NCBI GenBank assembly: GCA_000092065.1
Contig: CP000600.1
Length of the DNA: 64,000 bases
Direction: 5' to 3' (one strand)
From: Ostreococcus lucimarinus
Lineage: Eukaryota
Part shown: piece after piece, positions 12,264 to 62,412 of the stretch
Layout of the letters: every line of letters starts with the position of its first letter
Position numbering within the stretch: the first letter of the stretch is position 1
The notes under the pieces: model-generated
Told to the model about the DNA's origin: nothing
Databases searched by the model: none
The model's input: the letters and a program-made list of their open reading frames with translations, nothing else
Program-made: the position numbers and the translations under genes

Positions 12264-12587
12264 TCACTTATCAAATAGTGATGGGCGAATCGCGCCGCCA
12301 AGATTCGACGGGAACAACTTCCTCACAAAGCAACCCACTTTCGAACGGTGCTTGTAAATTTTCGTCCGGATTCTGTTGAATGCCTCCGGTGAGCGGACAG
12401 AATCGAATGTTCCAGTGCGTAAGAACATTCCTTCTAGCGCGCGCGCGTACTTTTCTAGAGTGTCAAGATCTTCCAGCAAATCCGTCATAGCGTAATCCAT
12501 CCTGAGAAACGCCGAGCGCGCACGGTGCGAATAATAATTCACATCGCACATCTCCATATCATCGATGCTGTATTCAAACTGCGCCAA
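12264..12587 (-). CDS. Terminal exon of a small hypothetical gene.
   Basis: Ends at a stop at 12264. The M shown in the ORF track is a TTG. An in-frame stop lies immediately upstream, so an acceptor (candidate CGCAG| at about 12583) is required. Probably the last exon of a gene whose other exons are 12627..12902 and 12893..13213. Splice sites not resolved. Confidence 0.3.
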   Translation of the reverse strand: MAQFEYSIDDMEMCDVNYYSHRARSAFLRMDYAMTDLLEDLDTLEKYARALEGMFLRTGTFDSVRSPEAFNRIRTKIYKHRSKVGCFVRKLFPSNLGGAIRPSLFDK

Positions 12588-12892
12588 CGTATGCTATCGT
12601 GTCACGCACGCATATTGTTACTTTAGTCAGTCATCAATCTCTCCGTGCGTCGTCGAAATCACGACTCGCGTGTAGTCGTATCGCTCGCATCGCTCGTCCC
12701 GTCGCACCTGCATGAGCTGCGCAATGTATTCGTGGCAACCCACCACCGCTTGCGCGTGACGATGCGGCCATCGCGTTACGCCCGCTTTTCTACACCTACA
12801 CTCACCGCGAACCAGACGCGCATCGTCAGTCACGCGGTCCGTGCGAGCGACAAAGACTCTCAAAAAAGTCAAAAAAAAATCGCGCGCTGGGC

Positions 12893-13213
12893 TCAAAAAC
12901 ACAATAAAGCGACGAAAGACACGTGCGCTTTGACGTACTGCAGCCTGAATGATCCAGAGGGCATCCCAAACGCCTTCGCGACTTTGTCCGCGGGCATCAT
13001 CAGGAACGCGTACAGCTCGTGCAAGTCGAACGGCTCGTCCAACTCCTCGTCGATCGCCAACGCCTCGCGTTCGGCAAACTGTTTCGCGACGAGCGCCGCT
13101 CGCCTCGCCCGTTGATCATCATCGATTATCCCCAATCGATGATCTAAGATCGCGCGCGCCGCGCGCGCCTCCGTCGCCGCGAGCGCGTCGCGTTCGTTCG
13201 CAATCGTTCTCAT
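12893..13213 (-). CDS. Probable first exon of the same small hypothetical gene (...FDLHELYAFLMMPADKVAKAFGM...).
   Basis: ATG at 13213. Balanced composition. The frame closes at 12893 while an adjacent frame (12627..12902) continues, so an intron or frame change is needed. No family recognised. Confidence 0.3.
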   Translation of the reverse strand: MRTIANERDALAATEARAARAILDHRLGIIDDDQRARRAALVAKQFAEREALAIDEELDEPFDLHELYAFLMMPADKVAKAFGMPSGSFRLQYVKAHVSFVALLCF

Positions 13214-13507
13214 CGCGCGTGCGCGCGCGTCGCAGCCACGCGCGCCGCGCCGGGCGAGCGCACCACGGCCTCGCGCCTCGGAATAAAAAAACCCTCCGGT
13301 GGCATCGCGCGCGCCTTCCCGCGTCGCGCGCTTTCACTCGGCACGTTCATCGCACCGTCGATACCCTTTCGATTCGCGCTTGTACGGCGTCTTCGCCGCG
13401 CGCGGTGGCGATAAACGTTCGTGCGCTTTTTCGCCACTTTTTCGGTCTTTTCGGTCTGTTCGACGGCGACCGGTCGACAGTCGGAGATTTAACTTGTCGT
13501 ATGCGTA

Positions 13508-13550
13508 AACAGTCAGAATAAGGACGTATGCGTAAACAGTTCGAGACCCG
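13508..13550. promoter_or_regulatory. Two tandem copies of CGTATGCGTAAACAGT (13508-13525 and 13533-13550) in a divergent intergenic region.
   Basis: Read directly from the sequence. The same 16-mer recurs at 39377..39394, and the AAACAGTCAG core recurs at about 27030 (reverse strand) and at 45251 and 45356. Confidence 0.35.
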
Positions 13551-13592
13551 TGCGCGCGCGCGCCGGGCGCGCCGGCGTCCCGGACCGCACTC

Positions 13593-13626
<34 letters not shown>

Positions 13627-26208: not shown

Positions 26209-27144
26209 ACCGCGAGCGAGAGCGACATTTGTAATATCAACCAACGAAGCCGACGCAACGCGCAGCGCGTACGGTGAATGCGGTACGCGCTCGACGCCCA
26301 ATTCAACTCGCATCGTCCGACGAACGCTAAGTCTTTACGTACAAGCCGAAATTAAACGCGCCGACGTCGGCCGGCGCGCGCGACGCGACGCGCGACGTTG
26401 ACCGAGCTCACCCCGAATCGGCGTCCGATGTCGACGAAAAGTTAGGACAAGCTAGAACGTGTAACTCTCGTGTCGTCACAAAAGTTTCGGCGACGTTCGC
26501 GCCGTCGAGCGGTGCGAAGTCGCGCCGAACCATCGCGAGCAAACCATCACACACCATCTCAAATGATGCAAAATCCATCATTCGGGCGCTTAAATCGCGT
26601 CCGAATTCGACGAAAAGTTGGGAAAAGCTGGAGAACGAAAAGTTCTCGCCGTCGGCGCGAAAAGCATAAAGAAACCAAGCGATACCGGGGGTTCCTGACG
26701 TCTTCCGACATCGGTACTTATCCGGCCCACGCGGTCTTAACTGAGAAGTTCCGATGGGTTTCTGTGATTTTCCGCGGGTGTGGTCGCTTGATGACACCAT
26801 GTGCCGCACGACCCTTTAGCCGCGCACCACGCGGGGTCACGGCGCGAACGTTACGGGTACTTTTGACGCCGTGTCGGTACTTTAAGAGTCGAAAACCTAT
26901 ACATTCACAAAATGCACCCCTCAATTATCGCGTCATCGCATCGCCGCTCGCGATTAGGCGCTTAAAAACCTCGATGTACGTGAATTCATCGCCCTTTTTT
27001 CGTTTCGTTCCCTGACTTTACCCTGTTTACCCCGTCTGACTGTTTACCCATAGATACCATAGAATTCAAGCGGTCGCAAACAACAACACGGATCCCCACC
27101 CCCCCTCGACACGCGCGCATGCCCCCCTGTGCCGCGGTCGTTGA

Positions 27145-38288: not shown

Positions 38289-39344
38289 ATGGATCGACAC
38301 GCGTTCTTCGCCGCGCAGGCGTGGTTGACGGCGACGACGACGCGCGCGCGCGACGGCGCGCGTGCGAGCGACGACGGCGACGGCGACGACGGCGCGACGC
38401 GCGAGCGCGAGGAGATATACGCCGGGACGTGCTCGTTTTCGTGCGCGGACGAGGAGCAGTACGAGACGCGGGCGATCGCGACGATGGACGGCGACGACGC
38501 GGCGGACGACGGGGAGGACGACGCGGCGGACGACGGGGAGGAGGACGCGGCGGAGAATGGAAGAGGGCGACGGCGCGCGCGGCCGCGCGGCGCGCTGGCG
38601 AGAGATGCGCAGCACTTGACGTTCGGGACGACGGCGACGCTGCGCGACCCGGCGAGCGTTCGAGTGTCGTTCGCGGCGGTGAAAACGACGTTCGGAGCGA
38701 GCTCGGGAACGGGGTCGGGATCGACGAGCGTGGGGGATGCGACGACGGCGAACGCGCGCGCGCGAATTGAGCTCGAGTGTGAGCTCGACGGTCAGACGTA
38801 CAGGATGTCGACGCGAACGTGCCGCGCCGTCGTGAAATCGTTCAAGGAGACGGCGCGATCGGGGCACACCGAGGCTTTTCCGCGGTATTTGAGCGTCATT
38901 TTCCCTCACGTCACCATGAACGTATACTCTGCCGCGGAATCCGACGCTTCGTGGGACGGTTTGCGCGCGCTCGCGCGCGCTTTGACGGACCCCGCGCTCG
39001 CGACGACGAAGACGACGACGACGACGAGCGAAAACTACGACGACGGACACGACACCGACCCCGACGGAAACGATCCGAGTCCAGTGGGCGTGGGGAAGCC
39101 GAATCCTCTTCCACGTTCGATCGGGAACGAGATCGATCTCGAGACTGTCGCGCTCGCGGACGCCGACGCCTTTGCCGCGCAGCGTTTCGCCGCCGACGCT
39201 CTCTGCGACGCCGCTCGGCTCCTCGTCGCCGACGGCGATCCGTGGCGAACGCTTTCGCACGACTTGCTCGCTCACGGCGTGCGCGACGTTTTCGCGGACG
39301 ATCCATCCGCGTACGCCGGGCGCGCTTTTCCAGGCGACAAGTAA
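38289..39344 (+). CDS. Hypothetical protein of 351 aa with an acidic N-terminal third and a Thr-rich linker.
   Basis: Balanced composition in the core (IELECELDGQTYRMSTRTCRAVVKSFKETARSGHTEAFPRYLSVIFPHVTMNVYSAAESDASWDG). The overlapping minus-strand 629-aa ORF is Arg-rich and was rejected. No family recognised. Confidence 0.4.
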   Translation: MDRHAFFAAQAWLTATTTRARDGARASDDGDGDDGATREREEIYAGTCSFSCADEEQYETRAIATMDGDDAADDGEDDAADDGEEDAAENGRGRRRARPRGALARDAQHLTFGTTATLRDPASVRVSFAAVKTTFGASSGTGSGSTSVGDATTANARARIELECELDGQTYRMSTRTCRAVVKSFKETARSGHTEAFPRYLSVIFPHVTMNVYSAAESDASWDGLRALARALTDPALATTKTTTTTSENYDDGHDTDPDGNDPSPVGVGKPNPLPRSIGNEIDLETVALADADAFAAQRFAADALCDAARLLVADGDPWRTLSHDLLAHGVRDVFADDPSAYAGRAFPGDK

Positions 39345-39703
39345 AAGCGTGGACATCCAACCGGGCGATGCGAATCGTCGTATGCGTAAACAGTATGCTC
39401 ATGCGAATCGACAGGGGAGGGCGCCAGCGTGGTTGTCGCGAGGCGCGCCCGCGCCCGTACACCGAGTCGTGCGCTTTCGTCCTGTCGGCGATCGCGCGCG
39501 CGCGGCGCCGAGCGCTCGATCGCGAACGTTCATCCGTAAACGTCTCGATCGCACGCGCGCGCGTCGCGGACGGACGCGTCGTCGCGCGAGCCAGGCGACG
39601 CGCAAAGATCGACGCTCACGCGTTTTCACCCTTCGCGCGTCGTTCACGCGTTTTCCGCGCTTGACGACGCCGCGCGCATCGCACGCGCGCGCATCGACGC
39701 GAA

Positions 39704-45196: not shown

Positions 45197-45225
45197 CGCT
45201 CGACGCAAGCCGCGCCGCCGCGACG

Positions 45226-45375
45226 GAGCGCGCCTTGTAACGCGTACGAGCAAACAGTCAGCCCAACCCGATGTGAAGTTTTATGATTCACGAAAAAGTC
45301 GGACAAAAGATTCGTTCCCGCGCATTTTCGGAGCGCGCCTTGTAACGCGTACGAGCAAACAGTCAGCCCAACCCG
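45226..45375. repeat. Pair of identical 45-bp direct repeats (GAGCGCGCCTTGTAACGCGTACGAGCAAACAGTCAGCCCAACCCG) at 45226..45270 and 45331..45375.
   Basis: Read directly from the sequence. Lies between the NDUFAF5-like stop (45196) and the bHLH gene start (45669). Contains the AAACAGTCAG motif seen in other promoters. Confidence 0.9.
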
Positions 45376-61951: not shown

Positions 61952-62412
61952 GGCGACCTCGGTTTCGCTCGAGTCCGTCGCCGCGTCGCTCGGCGGCGTC
62001 TGCGGTGCCGCCGTCGCGGGCCGCCTTTCGACCCCGACCTAGGGTTCGGGCGCGCCCTCGATCGCGCGCGAAATCCGAGGCGCGGGCGTCCGAATGTGCC
62101 GGGGCGGGCGGGGCGGGTGTCCGAATGTCCGAATTGCGCGCACGTCCGCACTGTTTGCGCACACGATACAGACGTCCGCGCGCGCGTGTGATCTTTCGCG
62201 CCGACGTCACGCGCGTCGAGAGGGCGCGCGCTCGGACGCGTCGCGCGCGAGCGGGGACGGGGCACAGCGCGACGCGACGGCGAGGAACGACGCGAAAGAT
62301 TGAGTCGCATCACCGCGCGCGCCGGGCGAGGACGACGCGCGCGAACGACGGCGAGAAGACGCGCGGAAGACGAGGGCGAAAGAGCGAGGGCGAAGGGCTC
62401 GGTGGGGGGAGT

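What the first reader, a model, noticed from the sequence alone, without database searches (positions are those of the whole stretch)
13500..13555. Recurrent upstream motif CGTATGCGTAAACAGT / AAACAGTCAG in several promoter regions
The exact 16-mer CGTATGCGTAAACAGT occurs twice in tandem at 13508-13550 and again at 39377-39394, where it is flanked by a direct repeat ATGCGAATCG. The core GTAAACAGTCAGA recurs on the opposite strand at about 27030-27050, next to a second CTGTTTACC copy and ~100 bp upstream of the Ldh_2-family gene. GCAAACAGTCAGCC sits inside each copy of the 45-bp direct repeat at 45226-45375, upstream of the bHLH gene. All occurrences are intergenic and within a few hundred bp of a gene start. 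That pattern suggests a shared cis-regulatory element or core-promoter motif rather than chance.
Basis: seen in the sequence. Interest (0 to 1): 0.6.

Follow-up and report, generated by a model that had tools for sequence, protein, structure and literature searches.

The report
Conserved promoter motif of Mamiellales algae
A roughly 20-base DNA word (W-CGTATGCGTAAACAGT-nnGA) recurs in the short gene-upstream spacers of this Ostreococcus genome and, letter for letter, in several Ostreococcus lineages and a flagellated, GC-rich relative that is probably Micromonas, so it is most likely a real and apparently undescribed docking site for a gene-regulating protein.

Summary
The exact 16-mer CGTATGCGTAAACAGT lies at 13498-13513, 13525-13540 and 39379-39394 (+). 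Diverged copies lie at 62150-62165 (-), 27039-27054 (-), 45243-45258 and 45348-45363 (+). That is 8 matches at up to 3 mismatches against 0.33 expected, and all seven motif copies are intergenic.

The window is Ostreococcus lucimarinus-like. A metagenome scan found the identical 16-mer at about 19-25 further, non-homologous loci. These come from GC-rich marine picoalgae: O. mediterraneus, other Ostreococcus, and a flagellated, probably Micromonas-like lineage. There the conserved word extends to W-16mer-nnGA.

In 11 genes the motif sits 95-217 bp upstream of the ATG. The genes are unrelated: MinE, ELIP-like, LST8-like, NOL10, RIB43A, a DEAD helicase, Tim10 and others. It occurs in both tandem and divergent spacers, so it is not a poly(A) signal.

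It is kept about 325 bp upstream of the KH-domain gene in three of five Ostreococcus lineages. It is inverted at one orthologous divergent promoter. It often multiplies by small local duplications.

Best reading: a binding site for an unidentified sequence-specific factor in promoters, conserved across Mamiellophyceae. I found no description of it in the searchable literature. The trans factor, its position relative to transcription start sites and its regulatory output remain inferred.

The parts
13498..13513 (+). Exact motif copy 1 (CGTATGCGTAAACAGT, followed by CAGA). It lies 134 bp upstream of the ATG (13632) of a conserved membrane-protein gene. It is in a divergent spacer shared with a probable RWP-RK gene on the - strand.
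13525..13540 (+). Exact motif copy 2, 27 bp after copy 1 and 107 bp upstream of ATG 13632. Both copies are kept in close relatives: L005 (copy 1 has a 1-bp deletion), L027, and L060/L067 (copy 1 as GCGCAAACAGT).
39379..39394 (+). Exact motif copy 3. It lies 35 bp after the stop codon of the upstream + gene (38289-39344) and 325 bp upstream of the ATG of the KH-domain gene (39704). Motif variants occur at the same distance in O. tauri (L140:5391) and L141:4652. It is absent in L139 and L142.
39368..39410 (+). 10-bp direct repeats ATGCGAATCG (39368-39377 and 39401-39410) bracketing copy 3. The orthologous spot in L139 has a single CGAATCGACAG and no motif, so this site arose or was lost by a small duplication/indel. 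The repeats contain CGATTC (reverse complement), a reported Ostreococcus MYB-type promoter word.
   Evidence: PMC10662239
62150..62165 (-). 2-mismatch copy CGTGTGCGCAAACAGT (followed by GCGGACG). It is in the divergent spacer between Tim10 (ATG 61951, - strand, 199 bp away, same orientation) and the AP2-domain gene (ATG 62413, + strand, 248 bp away). Three GTCCGAAT words lie next to it at 62088-62134.
27039..27054 (-). 3-mismatch copy TCTATGGGTAAACAGT (followed by CAGACG). It lies in the spacer between Ldh_2 (first ATG 27235, + strand) and a 5S rRNA gene (26674-26791, - strand).
27023..27032 (-). Partial second copy (GGGTAAACAG), 17 bp from the copy above: a local duplication of the core.
45243..45258 (+). 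3-mismatch copy CGTACGAGCAAACAGT (followed by CAGCC), inside 47-nt repeat 1 (45224-45270). It lies 47 bp after the stop of the NDUFAF5-like methyltransferase gene and 426 bp upstream of the first in-frame ATG (45669) of the bHLH gene.
45348..45363 (+). Identical copy inside 47-nt repeat 2 (45329-45375), 321 bp upstream of the bHLH ATG. This pair is specific to the window's lineage; L139-L142 have no motif at the orthologous position.

Best explanation
The element is a promoter-proximal cis-regulatory DNA word of about 20 bp. Its consensus is W-YRTRYGNGYAAACAGT-nnGA(C), and the optimal form is W-CGTATGCGTAAACAGT.

Shown:
- It is a discrete, non-random word confined to intergenic spacers.
- Its exact form recurs at many unrelated gene-upstream regions in several Ostreococcus lineages and in a flagellated, GC-rich Mamiellophyceae lineage.
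- It usually lies 95-217 bp upstream of the start codon.
- Sites turn over between species and multiply by small local duplications.

Inferred:
- It is bound by a sequence-specific DNA-binding protein, or a dimer or multi-domain protein given its length, that is conserved in the group.
- Binding in the short nucleosome-free spacer modulates or helps set up transcription of the adjacent gene or genes.
- Tandem copies raise occupancy.

The binding protein and the direction of its effect on transcription (activation or repression) are unknown.
For: 1. Non-random in the window: 4 matches at up to 2 mismatches against 0.03 expected, and 8 at up to 3 mismatches against 0.33 expected. All seven motif copies are intergenic.

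2. Recurrence elsewhere: a metagenome scan for the exact 16-mer returned about 35 GC-rich (0.55-0.68) picoalga-like contigs forming about 19-25 distinct loci whose flanks are unrelated. In 25 distinct contexts position -1 is always A/T, against 19 of 45 C/G in unrelated contigs. Position +18 is G in 16 of 25 against 7 of 45.

3. Taxa: the adjacent actin in L052 is identical to O. mediterraneus. The clusters for L117 and L061 contain O. lucimarinus and O. tauri proteins. L037 carries the flagellar gene RIB43A at GC 0.66, with closest named relative Mamiellaceae sp. RCC2288.

4. Position: the motif-to-ATG distance is 95-217 bp for 11 unrelated genes (window 13632 gene, Tim10, MinE, DEAD helicase, ELIP-like, LST8-like, NOL10, RIB43A and two unknowns). 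The flanks switch from AT 0.35-0.40 upstream to 0.27-0.31 downstream.

5. Orthologous retention: motif variants lie about 325 bp upstream of the KH gene in the window, O. tauri and L141. A variant lies 105 bp upstream of the ortholog of gene 13632 in L008, but inverted.

6. Clustering with itself and with other words: tandem copies, and GTCCGAAT and CGATTC words nearby.
Against: No binding protein is identified and no transcript 5' ends, expression data or chromatin data were available, so every functional step is inferred.

Orthologous conservation is only partial. The motif is absent upstream of the KH gene in L139 and L142, absent upstream of bHLH in all four other lineages, and absent in 21 kb around RIB43A in L143/L144.

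In 324 kb of sequence not selected for the motif there are no copies at up to 2 mismatches and 7 at 3 mismatches, against about 1.3 expected. The element is therefore sparse, and this window is unusually rich in it.

Exact copies are more frequent relative to 1-2-mismatch copies than a simple binding-energy model predicts. This could reflect copying rather than selection.

The downstream genes share no obvious function.
Confidence: 0.62

Rival explanations
1. Core-promoter or initiator-type element. The word itself positions RNA polymerase II, with transcription starting in or just after it (for example at the A of CAGT). This would resemble the extended initiator plus flanking region of oomycetes, or the Drosophila TCAGTY initiator and Ohler motifs.
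For: - The distance to the ATG (95-217 bp) is tight and compatible with a short 5' UTR.
- Base composition switches from AT-richer to GC-richer exactly at the motif, and the 30 bp upstream are AT-rich in many loci.
- In all tandem gene pairs that could be scored, the motif has the same orientation as the genes.
- ACAGTY resembles TCAGTY (my own knowledge).
Against: - The motif is inverted at the orthologous divergent promoter in L008.
- Upstream of the KH and bHLH genes it lies 320-430 bp from the ATG and only 35-56 bp past the previous gene's stop codon.
- Tandem copies 27-105 bp apart are odd for a start-site element.
- In two Micromonas-like loci a CCAAT-like box follows the motif, which is unusual downstream of a start site.
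- Only a minority of genes carry it.
Confidence: 0.17
2. General regulatory or insulator-type factor site, working like yeast Reb1, Abf1 or Rap1. A long, high-information site in the spacer would keep it nucleosome-free and block read-through from the neighbouring gene, rather than conferring a specific expression programme.
For: - The site is long (about 20 bp) and lies upstream of functionally unrelated genes.
- In tandem pairs it sits 35-56 bp after the previous stop codon, in the window and in O. tauri.
- The genome is extremely compact.
- The G-N-GTAA core loosely recalls the Reb1 site GGGTAA (my own knowledge).
Against: - The motif is far too sparse, roughly one per 10-50 kb, to serve most spacers.
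- There are no chromatin or termination data.
- Turnover between close species is high.
Confidence: 0.08
3. An element that acts in the mRNA: a 5'-UTR sequence or a short upstream ORF (ATG CGT AAA CAG = MRKQ) that controls translation or stability.
For: - The motif is on the sense strand for most identified downstream genes, 95-217 nt before the ATG.
- The optimal form contains an ATG.
Against: - The ATG is not kept in variants (CGTACGAG..., CGTGTGCG...).
- The reading frame after MRKQ is not conserved and ends at different places.
- Third-codon and pre-ATG positions are as invariant as the rest of the word.
- The word is too short and lacks a loop, so it cannot form a hairpin (read directly from the sequence).
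- Inverted copies occur at L008 and L141:5307.
Confidence: 0.05
4. A selfishly or mechanically copied micro-sequence (slippage, segmental copying or a tiny mobile unit) with no regulatory role. Copies would be identical because they are young.
For: - Local duplications of 17, 27, 70 and 105 bp carry the motif.
- A 10-bp direct repeat brackets the 39379 copy, and the corresponding site in L139 lacks the motif.
- A 118-bp segment with both 13.5-kb copies is found in unrelated low-GC contigs.
- Several contigs end close to the motif.
Against: - The same 16-mer, with the same W at -1 and G/A at +18/+19, occurs in different genera-level lineages at non-homologous loci. Their flanks share nothing beyond about 22 bp. 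Such divergent genomes cannot share young copies.
- No terminal inverted repeats or longer shared element are present.
- The motif is strictly intergenic and at a consistent distance from start codons.
Confidence: 0.05
5. A replication-origin consensus, as in budding yeasts, placed in intergenic spacers of a compact genome.
For: - The motif is intergenic and T/A-rich on one strand (ACTGTTTAC).
- Its spacing, roughly one per 10-50 kb, is in the range of origin spacing.
Against: - There is no evidence bearing on replication.
- The match to the yeast ACS is poor (my own comparison).
- The fixed distance to start codons is not expected for origins.
Confidence: 0.02

Closest known systems
Promoter words already reported for Ostreococcus: CCA1/evening-element GATATTT, MYB GGATAG and CGATTC, E2F GTTCCCC, bHLH CCACGTGG (PMC10662239)
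   Same: Short intergenic spacers of about 200-250 bp carry over-represented words upstream of start codons. One of these words (CGATTC) flanks the 39379 copy on both sides.
   Different: None of the reported words overlaps this motif. The strings AACAG, CTGTT, GTAAAC and GTTTAC do not occur in that paper. This motif is two to three times longer and far rarer.
Upstream sequence element (USE) of snRNA-type (type 3) promoters: CCCRTAA in O. lucimarinus, ACCCAYAW in Micromonas pusilla (PMC8287931)
   Same: Both are lineage-conserved words upstream of genes in the same organisms, and they share CGTAA. A true CCCGTAA lies about 60 nt upstream of the 5S rRNA gene in this window.
   Different: The sequence differs: GCGTAAACAGT, not CCCRTAA. 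No small-RNA gene follows the motif. Rfam finds only the 5S gene in the window, and that gene lies 235-260 nt from the nearest motif copy and has its own USE. The downstream genes encode proteins.
Forkhead (FOX/Fkh) binding site RYAAAYA (GTAAACA)
   Same: Positions 8-14 of the motif (G-Y-A-A-A-C-A) match the forkhead primary consensus exactly, including the T/C alternation (the consensus is from my own knowledge).
   Different: Forkhead proteins are not reported in green-algal transcription-factor surveys; the survey PMC4827209 does not mention them. Nine further positions outside the forkhead core are equally conserved. This is a resemblance only.
Long promoter words of other compact or well-studied genomes: oomycete initiator plus flanking region (16-19 nt); Drosophila Ohler motifs 1 and DRE; yeast general regulatory factor sites (Reb1, Abf1, Rap1)
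   Same: All are long, high-information, strand-aware words at a fairly fixed distance upstream of many functionally unrelated genes in short promoters.
   Different: There is no sequence similarity beyond short cores. The frequency here is much lower. Neither the position relative to start sites nor any effect on chromatin has been shown.
Green-algal polyadenylation signal TGTAA
   Same: Some variants contain TGTAA (TATATGTGTAAACAGT). Two window sites lie 35-56 bp after a stop codon on the same strand.
   Different: The main form has CGTAA. At least six sites lie in divergent (head-to-head) spacers with no 3' end on that strand. The real TGTAA of the methyltransferase gene lies 8 nt upstream of the motif copy, within the same 47-nt repeat.

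Membership tests
Transcription-factor binding site / promoter cis-element (generic) | Non-random, over-represented word restricted to non-coding upstream DNA | tested here: met
   8 matches against 0.33 expected at up to 3 mismatches. All seven motif copies are intergenic. The motif lies 95-217 bp upstream of the ATG in 11 genes.
Transcription-factor binding site / promoter cis-element (generic) | Conservation of the word, not of its flanks, across species whose intergenic DNA is otherwise not alignable | tested here: met
   The exact 16-mer occurs at about 19-25 distinct loci of several Ostreococcus lineages and a flagellated GC-rich relative. Extra conserved positions are -1, +18 and +19. 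Retention at orthologous positions is partial.
Transcription-factor binding site / promoter cis-element (generic) | Bound by a protein, with an effect on transcription | not testable with these tools
   This needs DAP-seq, ChIP or EMSA and reporter mutagenesis.
Core promoter / initiator element | Fixed position relative to the transcription start site, with strict orientation | tested here: inconclusive
   No transcript 5' ends were available. The distance to the ATG is tight. However, the motif is inverted in L008 and lies 320-430 bp from the ATG at two genes.
snRNA-type USE / type 3 promoter | Matches the lineage USE (CCCRTAA) and precedes an snRNA or other small-RNA gene by about 60-70 nt | tested here: not met
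   The sequence differs. Rfam finds only a 5S gene, which has its own CCCGTAA at about -60.
Poly(A) / 3'-end signal (TGTAA type) | Lies downstream of a stop codon on the same strand | tested here: not met
   The motif is present in head-to-head spacers: Tim10/AP2, Ldh_2/5S, L038, L076, L124 and L136.
Transposable element / MITE | Shared sequence beyond the word, terminal inverted repeats, and target-site duplications at most copies | tested here: not met
   Flanks are unrelated beyond about 22 bp. Only one copy has a flanking direct repeat. One 118-bp segmental copy exists.
Forkhead-factor site | RYAAAYA core | tested here: met
   GYAAACA is present in all strong copies.
Forkhead-factor site | A forkhead-domain protein encoded by the organism | not tested
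The surveys read do not mention forkhead factors in green algae.
Myb / MSA (M-phase) element YAACNG / AACGG | Pyrimidine before AAC, and G or T at the N position | tested here: not met
   The motif has A-AAC-A-G. The consensus is from my own knowledge.
Structured RNA family | Match to an Rfam model, or a conserved hairpin | tested here: not met
   There is no Rfam hit at any motif site. The word cannot form a stem-loop (read directly from the sequence).

The most novel reading that the evidence does not exclude
The word is the recognition site of a single, deeply conserved, highly specific architectural factor of Mamiellophyceae: an insulator, roadblock or start-site-selecting protein, or an origin-binding factor. 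That factor would organise a defined subset of the ultra-short spacers of these minimal eukaryotic genomes. Sites would be created and spread by small templated duplications. If so, this would be the first sequence-defined chromatin or transcription-unit boundary element known in green algae.
Probability: 0.12. Interest if true: 0.75.

Novelty: new member of a known kind. Interest (0 to 1): 0.45.

Why it matters
Ostreococcus and Micromonas are model and ecologically dominant picoeukaryotes with some of the most compact nuclear genomes known. Very few of their promoter elements have been defined, and those are mainly the evening element, E2F and MYB-type words.

A 20-bp word conserved letter for letter across Ostreococcus lineages and, probably, across genera is an unusually well-defined handle. 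It could be used to fish out its binding protein, to define a regulon, and to design or improve synthetic promoters.

It could also be used to ask how transcription units are kept apart when spacers are only about 200 bp long. The observed birth of sites by small duplications gives a concrete example of binding-site turnover in these genomes.

Tried and rejected
- Structured RNA or small-RNA promoter. Rfam on the whole window found only a 5S rRNA gene and ARAGORN found no tRNA. The 5S gene has its own USE-like CCCGTAA.
- Poly(A) signal. Rejected because the motif occurs in head-to-head spacers.
- Upstream ORF (MRKQ). Rejected because the ATG and the frame are not conserved.
- Transposon. Flanks are unrelated.
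- Viral link. The ten single hits in viral contigs have unrelated contexts and look like chance.
- Non-algal metagenome hits. Many belong to an abundant human-gut bacterial repeat and to a low-GC coding gene, and were set aside as coincidences.
- Literature. Searches for the word and its sub-strings returned only primers and unrelated sequences. Piganeau et al. 2009, the Ostreococcus phylogenetic footprinting paper, is not held, so prior description there cannot be excluded.
- Naming the GC 0.66 lineage. A RIB43A homolog search gave only 'Mamiellaceae sp. RCC2288' at 50 % identity as the closest named relative. 'Micromonas-like' therefore remains an inference.
- RIB43A ortholog in a second GC 0.675 lineage (L143/L144). 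No motif was found there.
- ATGTCCGAAT as a window-wide second motif. It is not enriched overall, only next to the main motif.

Full report
**Organism and setting.** The window is a gene-dense, roughly 60 % GC green-algal sequence. Its proteins fall into 90 %-identity clusters with Ostreococcus lucimarinus CCE9901 proteins. Identical genes are abundant in Tara Oceans and other marine metagenome contigs. Gene calls on syntenic contigs cover about 80-87 % of the DNA, so intergenic spacers are short.

**Check of the observation.** The exact 16-mer CGTATGCGTAAACAGT occurs at 13498-13513, 13525-13540 and 39379-39394 on the + strand.
- At up to 2 mismatches a fourth copy appears at 62150-62165 on the - strand (0.03 expected).
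- At up to 3 mismatches there are eight matches against 0.33 expected, with at most 2 in any of 100 shuffles. These add 27039-27054 (-), 45243-45258 and 45348-45363.
- One coding match (12004, -) does not fit the refined consensus.
- AAACAGTCAG occurs four times against 0.08 expected.
- The flanking direct repeat ATGCGAATCG, the duplicated CTGTTTACCC and the 47-nt repeat upstream of the bHLH gene are all real.
- Seven of the ten AAACAGT heptamers in the window share the upstream context YRTRYGNGY.

**Gene context in the window.**

| Copy or copies | Position in its spacer |
|---|---|
| 13498 and 13525 | 134 and 107 bp upstream of the ATG of a conserved membrane-protein gene; divergent spacer shared with RWP-RK gene fragments on the other strand |
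| 39379 | 35 bp after the stop of one + gene; 325 bp before the ATG of a KH-domain gene |
| 45243 and 45348 | After the NDUFAF5-like methyltransferase gene; 426 and 321 bp before the first in-frame ATG of the bHLH gene |
| 62150 | Between Tim10 (199 bp away, same orientation) and an AP2-domain gene (248 bp away) |
| 27039 | Between Ldh_2 and a 5S rRNA gene found by Rfam at 26674-26791 |

The 5S rRNA gene has its own CCCGTAA about 60 nt upstream. This matches the snRNA-type USE reported for O. lucimarinus (PMC8287931).

**Evidence from other genomes.** Many hits are unrelated: an abundant human-gut bacterial repeat, and coding genes of low-GC organisms. About 35 contigs of GC 0.55-0.68 look like Mamiellales. 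They collapse into about 19-25 distinct loci whose flanks share nothing with the window or with each other.
- Adjacent proteins place L052 in O. mediterraneus (identical actin) and L117 and L061 in Ostreococcus.
- L037 carries the flagellar gene RIB43A at GC 0.66. Its closest named relative is Mamiellaceae sp. RCC2288. It therefore belongs to a flagellated, probably Micromonas-like lineage, which is an inference.
- In these 25 contexts position -1 is always A or T, against 19 of 45 C/G in the unrelated contigs. Position +18 is G in 16 of 25 and +19 is A in 16 of 25.

The functional word is therefore about 20 bp: W-CGTATGCGTAAACAGT-nnGA(C).

**Position and orientation.** For eleven unrelated genes whose start could be placed, the motif begins 95-217 bp upstream of the ATG on the sense strand. 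They are the 13632 gene, Tim10, MinE, a DEAD helicase, an ELIP-like protein, an LST8-like WD40 protein, NOL10, RIB43A (after its first exon was found) and two proteins of unknown function, one of which was scored in two lineages.
- Base composition changes at the motif, from AT 0.35-0.40 upstream to 0.27-0.31 downstream.
- The motif occurs in tandem pairs, always co-oriented in the few independent cases. It also occurs in at least six head-to-head spacers, which rules out a 3'-end signal.
- At the promoter orthologous to 13.5 kb in a GC 0.56 Ostreococcus lineage (L008), a variant (TATATGTGTAAACAGTGCAGACG) lies 105 bp from the ATG but is inverted.

**Conservation and turnover.** Upstream of the KH gene, motif variants lie about 325 bp from the ATG in the window, in O. 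tauri (CGTGCGAGCAAACAGTAAGAC) and in L141 (TGTATGTGTATACAGTTAGAGAC). They are absent in L139 and L142.
- The bHLH copies are specific to the window's lineage.
- In L139 the spot corresponding to 39368-39410 holds a single CGAATCGACAG and no motif.
- Local duplications of 17, 27, 70 and 105 bp carry the motif.
- A 118-bp segment with both 13.5-kb copies is found, 99 % identical, in low-GC contigs with glycosyltransferase-like genes.
- In 324 kb of Mamiellales sequence not selected for the motif there are no copies at up to 2 mismatches. There are 7 at 3 mismatches, against about 1.3 expected.

The element is sparse and the window is unusually rich in it.

**Interpretation.** The best-supported reading is a promoter-proximal binding site for a conserved, sequence-specific factor.
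- The core-promoter reading is the main rival and cannot be settled without transcript 5' ends.
- A general insulator or roadblock factor, an mRNA element or uORF, a copied but functionless micro-sequence, and a replication origin are less likely, for the reasons given under each rival.
- Two Micromonas-like loci share a longer block: an AT-rich stretch, the motif, then AGAYGGTGCYAATCACC.
- GTCCGAAT words cluster next to the motif at three independent loci.
- CGATTC, a reported Ostreococcus MYB-type word, flanks the 39379 copy.

These points suggest that the motif works within small composite modules.

**Comparison with what is known.** The motif is not among the published Ostreococcus promoter words in PMC10662239. 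It differs from the snRNA-type USE. Its core GYAAACA equals the forkhead consensus, but no forkhead factor is known in green algae, so that is a resemblance only. Full-text searches for the word found nothing relevant. The 2009 Ostreococcus footprinting paper could not be read.

**Verdict.** This is a real and, as far as I could check, undescribed member of an ordinary class: a promoter cis-element. It is notable for its length and for its letter-perfect conservation across Ostreococcus lineages and a probably Micromonas-like relative.

Noticed in passing
window 26674-26791 (-), with 26850-26856 (-): A 5S rRNA gene (Rfam, 71 bits) lies between the TrmK/AlkB-fusion gene and Ldh_2. About 60 nt upstream it has CCCGTAA, which matches the snRNA-type USE consensus (CCCRTAA) published for O. 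lucimarinus. This hints that the 5S gene uses an upstream element.
   Followed up: partly
window 39617-39627 and 39645-39655; L139, L140, L141 and L142 upstream of the KH-domain gene: CACGCGTTTTC occurs twice upstream of the KH-domain gene (0.22 expected). The same box, or a one-base variant, is kept in all five Ostreococcus lineages. It looks like an MCB/E2F-type cell-cycle box and is a cleaner case of orthologous conservation than the main motif.
   Followed up: partly
L060:2503-2620 and L067:4567-4684, matching window 13441-13558: Two metagenome contigs of GC 0.44 with glycosyltransferase-like and methyltransferase-like ORFs contain a 118-bp, 99 % identical copy of the window's spacer, including both motif copies. 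The similarity ends abruptly on both sides. This may be a segmental copy into the low-GC outlier chromosome or into a virus.
   Followed up: partly
window 62088-62134; L093 about 5675; L079 about 1319: GTCCGAAT words, often doubled as TGTCCGAATGTCCGAAT, lie within 80 bp of the main motif at three independent loci. That is 5 of 16 occurrences in 389 kb, against about 0.2 expected. This may be a partner motif.
   Followed up: partly
L029-L031, L045, L057-L059 and many other loci from human-gut metagenomes: The same 16-mer is embedded in an abundant, unrelated bacterial repeat, GTTACTGGGCACGTATGCGTAAACAGTAAC (a hairpin-like GTTACTG...CAGTAAC), and in a GC 0.35 coding gene. These are coincidental matches that inflate raw hit counts.
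   Followed up: no
window 12264-13213 (-): Three short - strand ORFs between the semialdehyde-dehydrogenase-family gene (annotated in other sources as N-acetyl-gamma-glutamyl-phosphate reductase) and the motif pair appear to be exons of an RWP-RK transcription-factor gene. There is a weak Pfam hit here and a clear RWP-RK call at the syntenic place in L008. All three transcription-factor genes in the window (RWP-RK, bHLH, AP2) adjoin a motif-bearing spacer.
   Followed up: partly
L137:462-481: A perfect 18-bp palindrome, ACTGTATGCGCATACAGT, resembles two inverted right halves of the motif. This hints that the factor may bind as a dimer to GYAWACAGT-type half-sites.
   Followed up: no
window 13439-13456 and 13590-13625: A tandem TTTTCGGTC x2 lies just upstream of the motif pair. 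A (GGC)n run lies just upstream of the start codon of gene 13632, in its presumed 5' leader.
   Followed up: no
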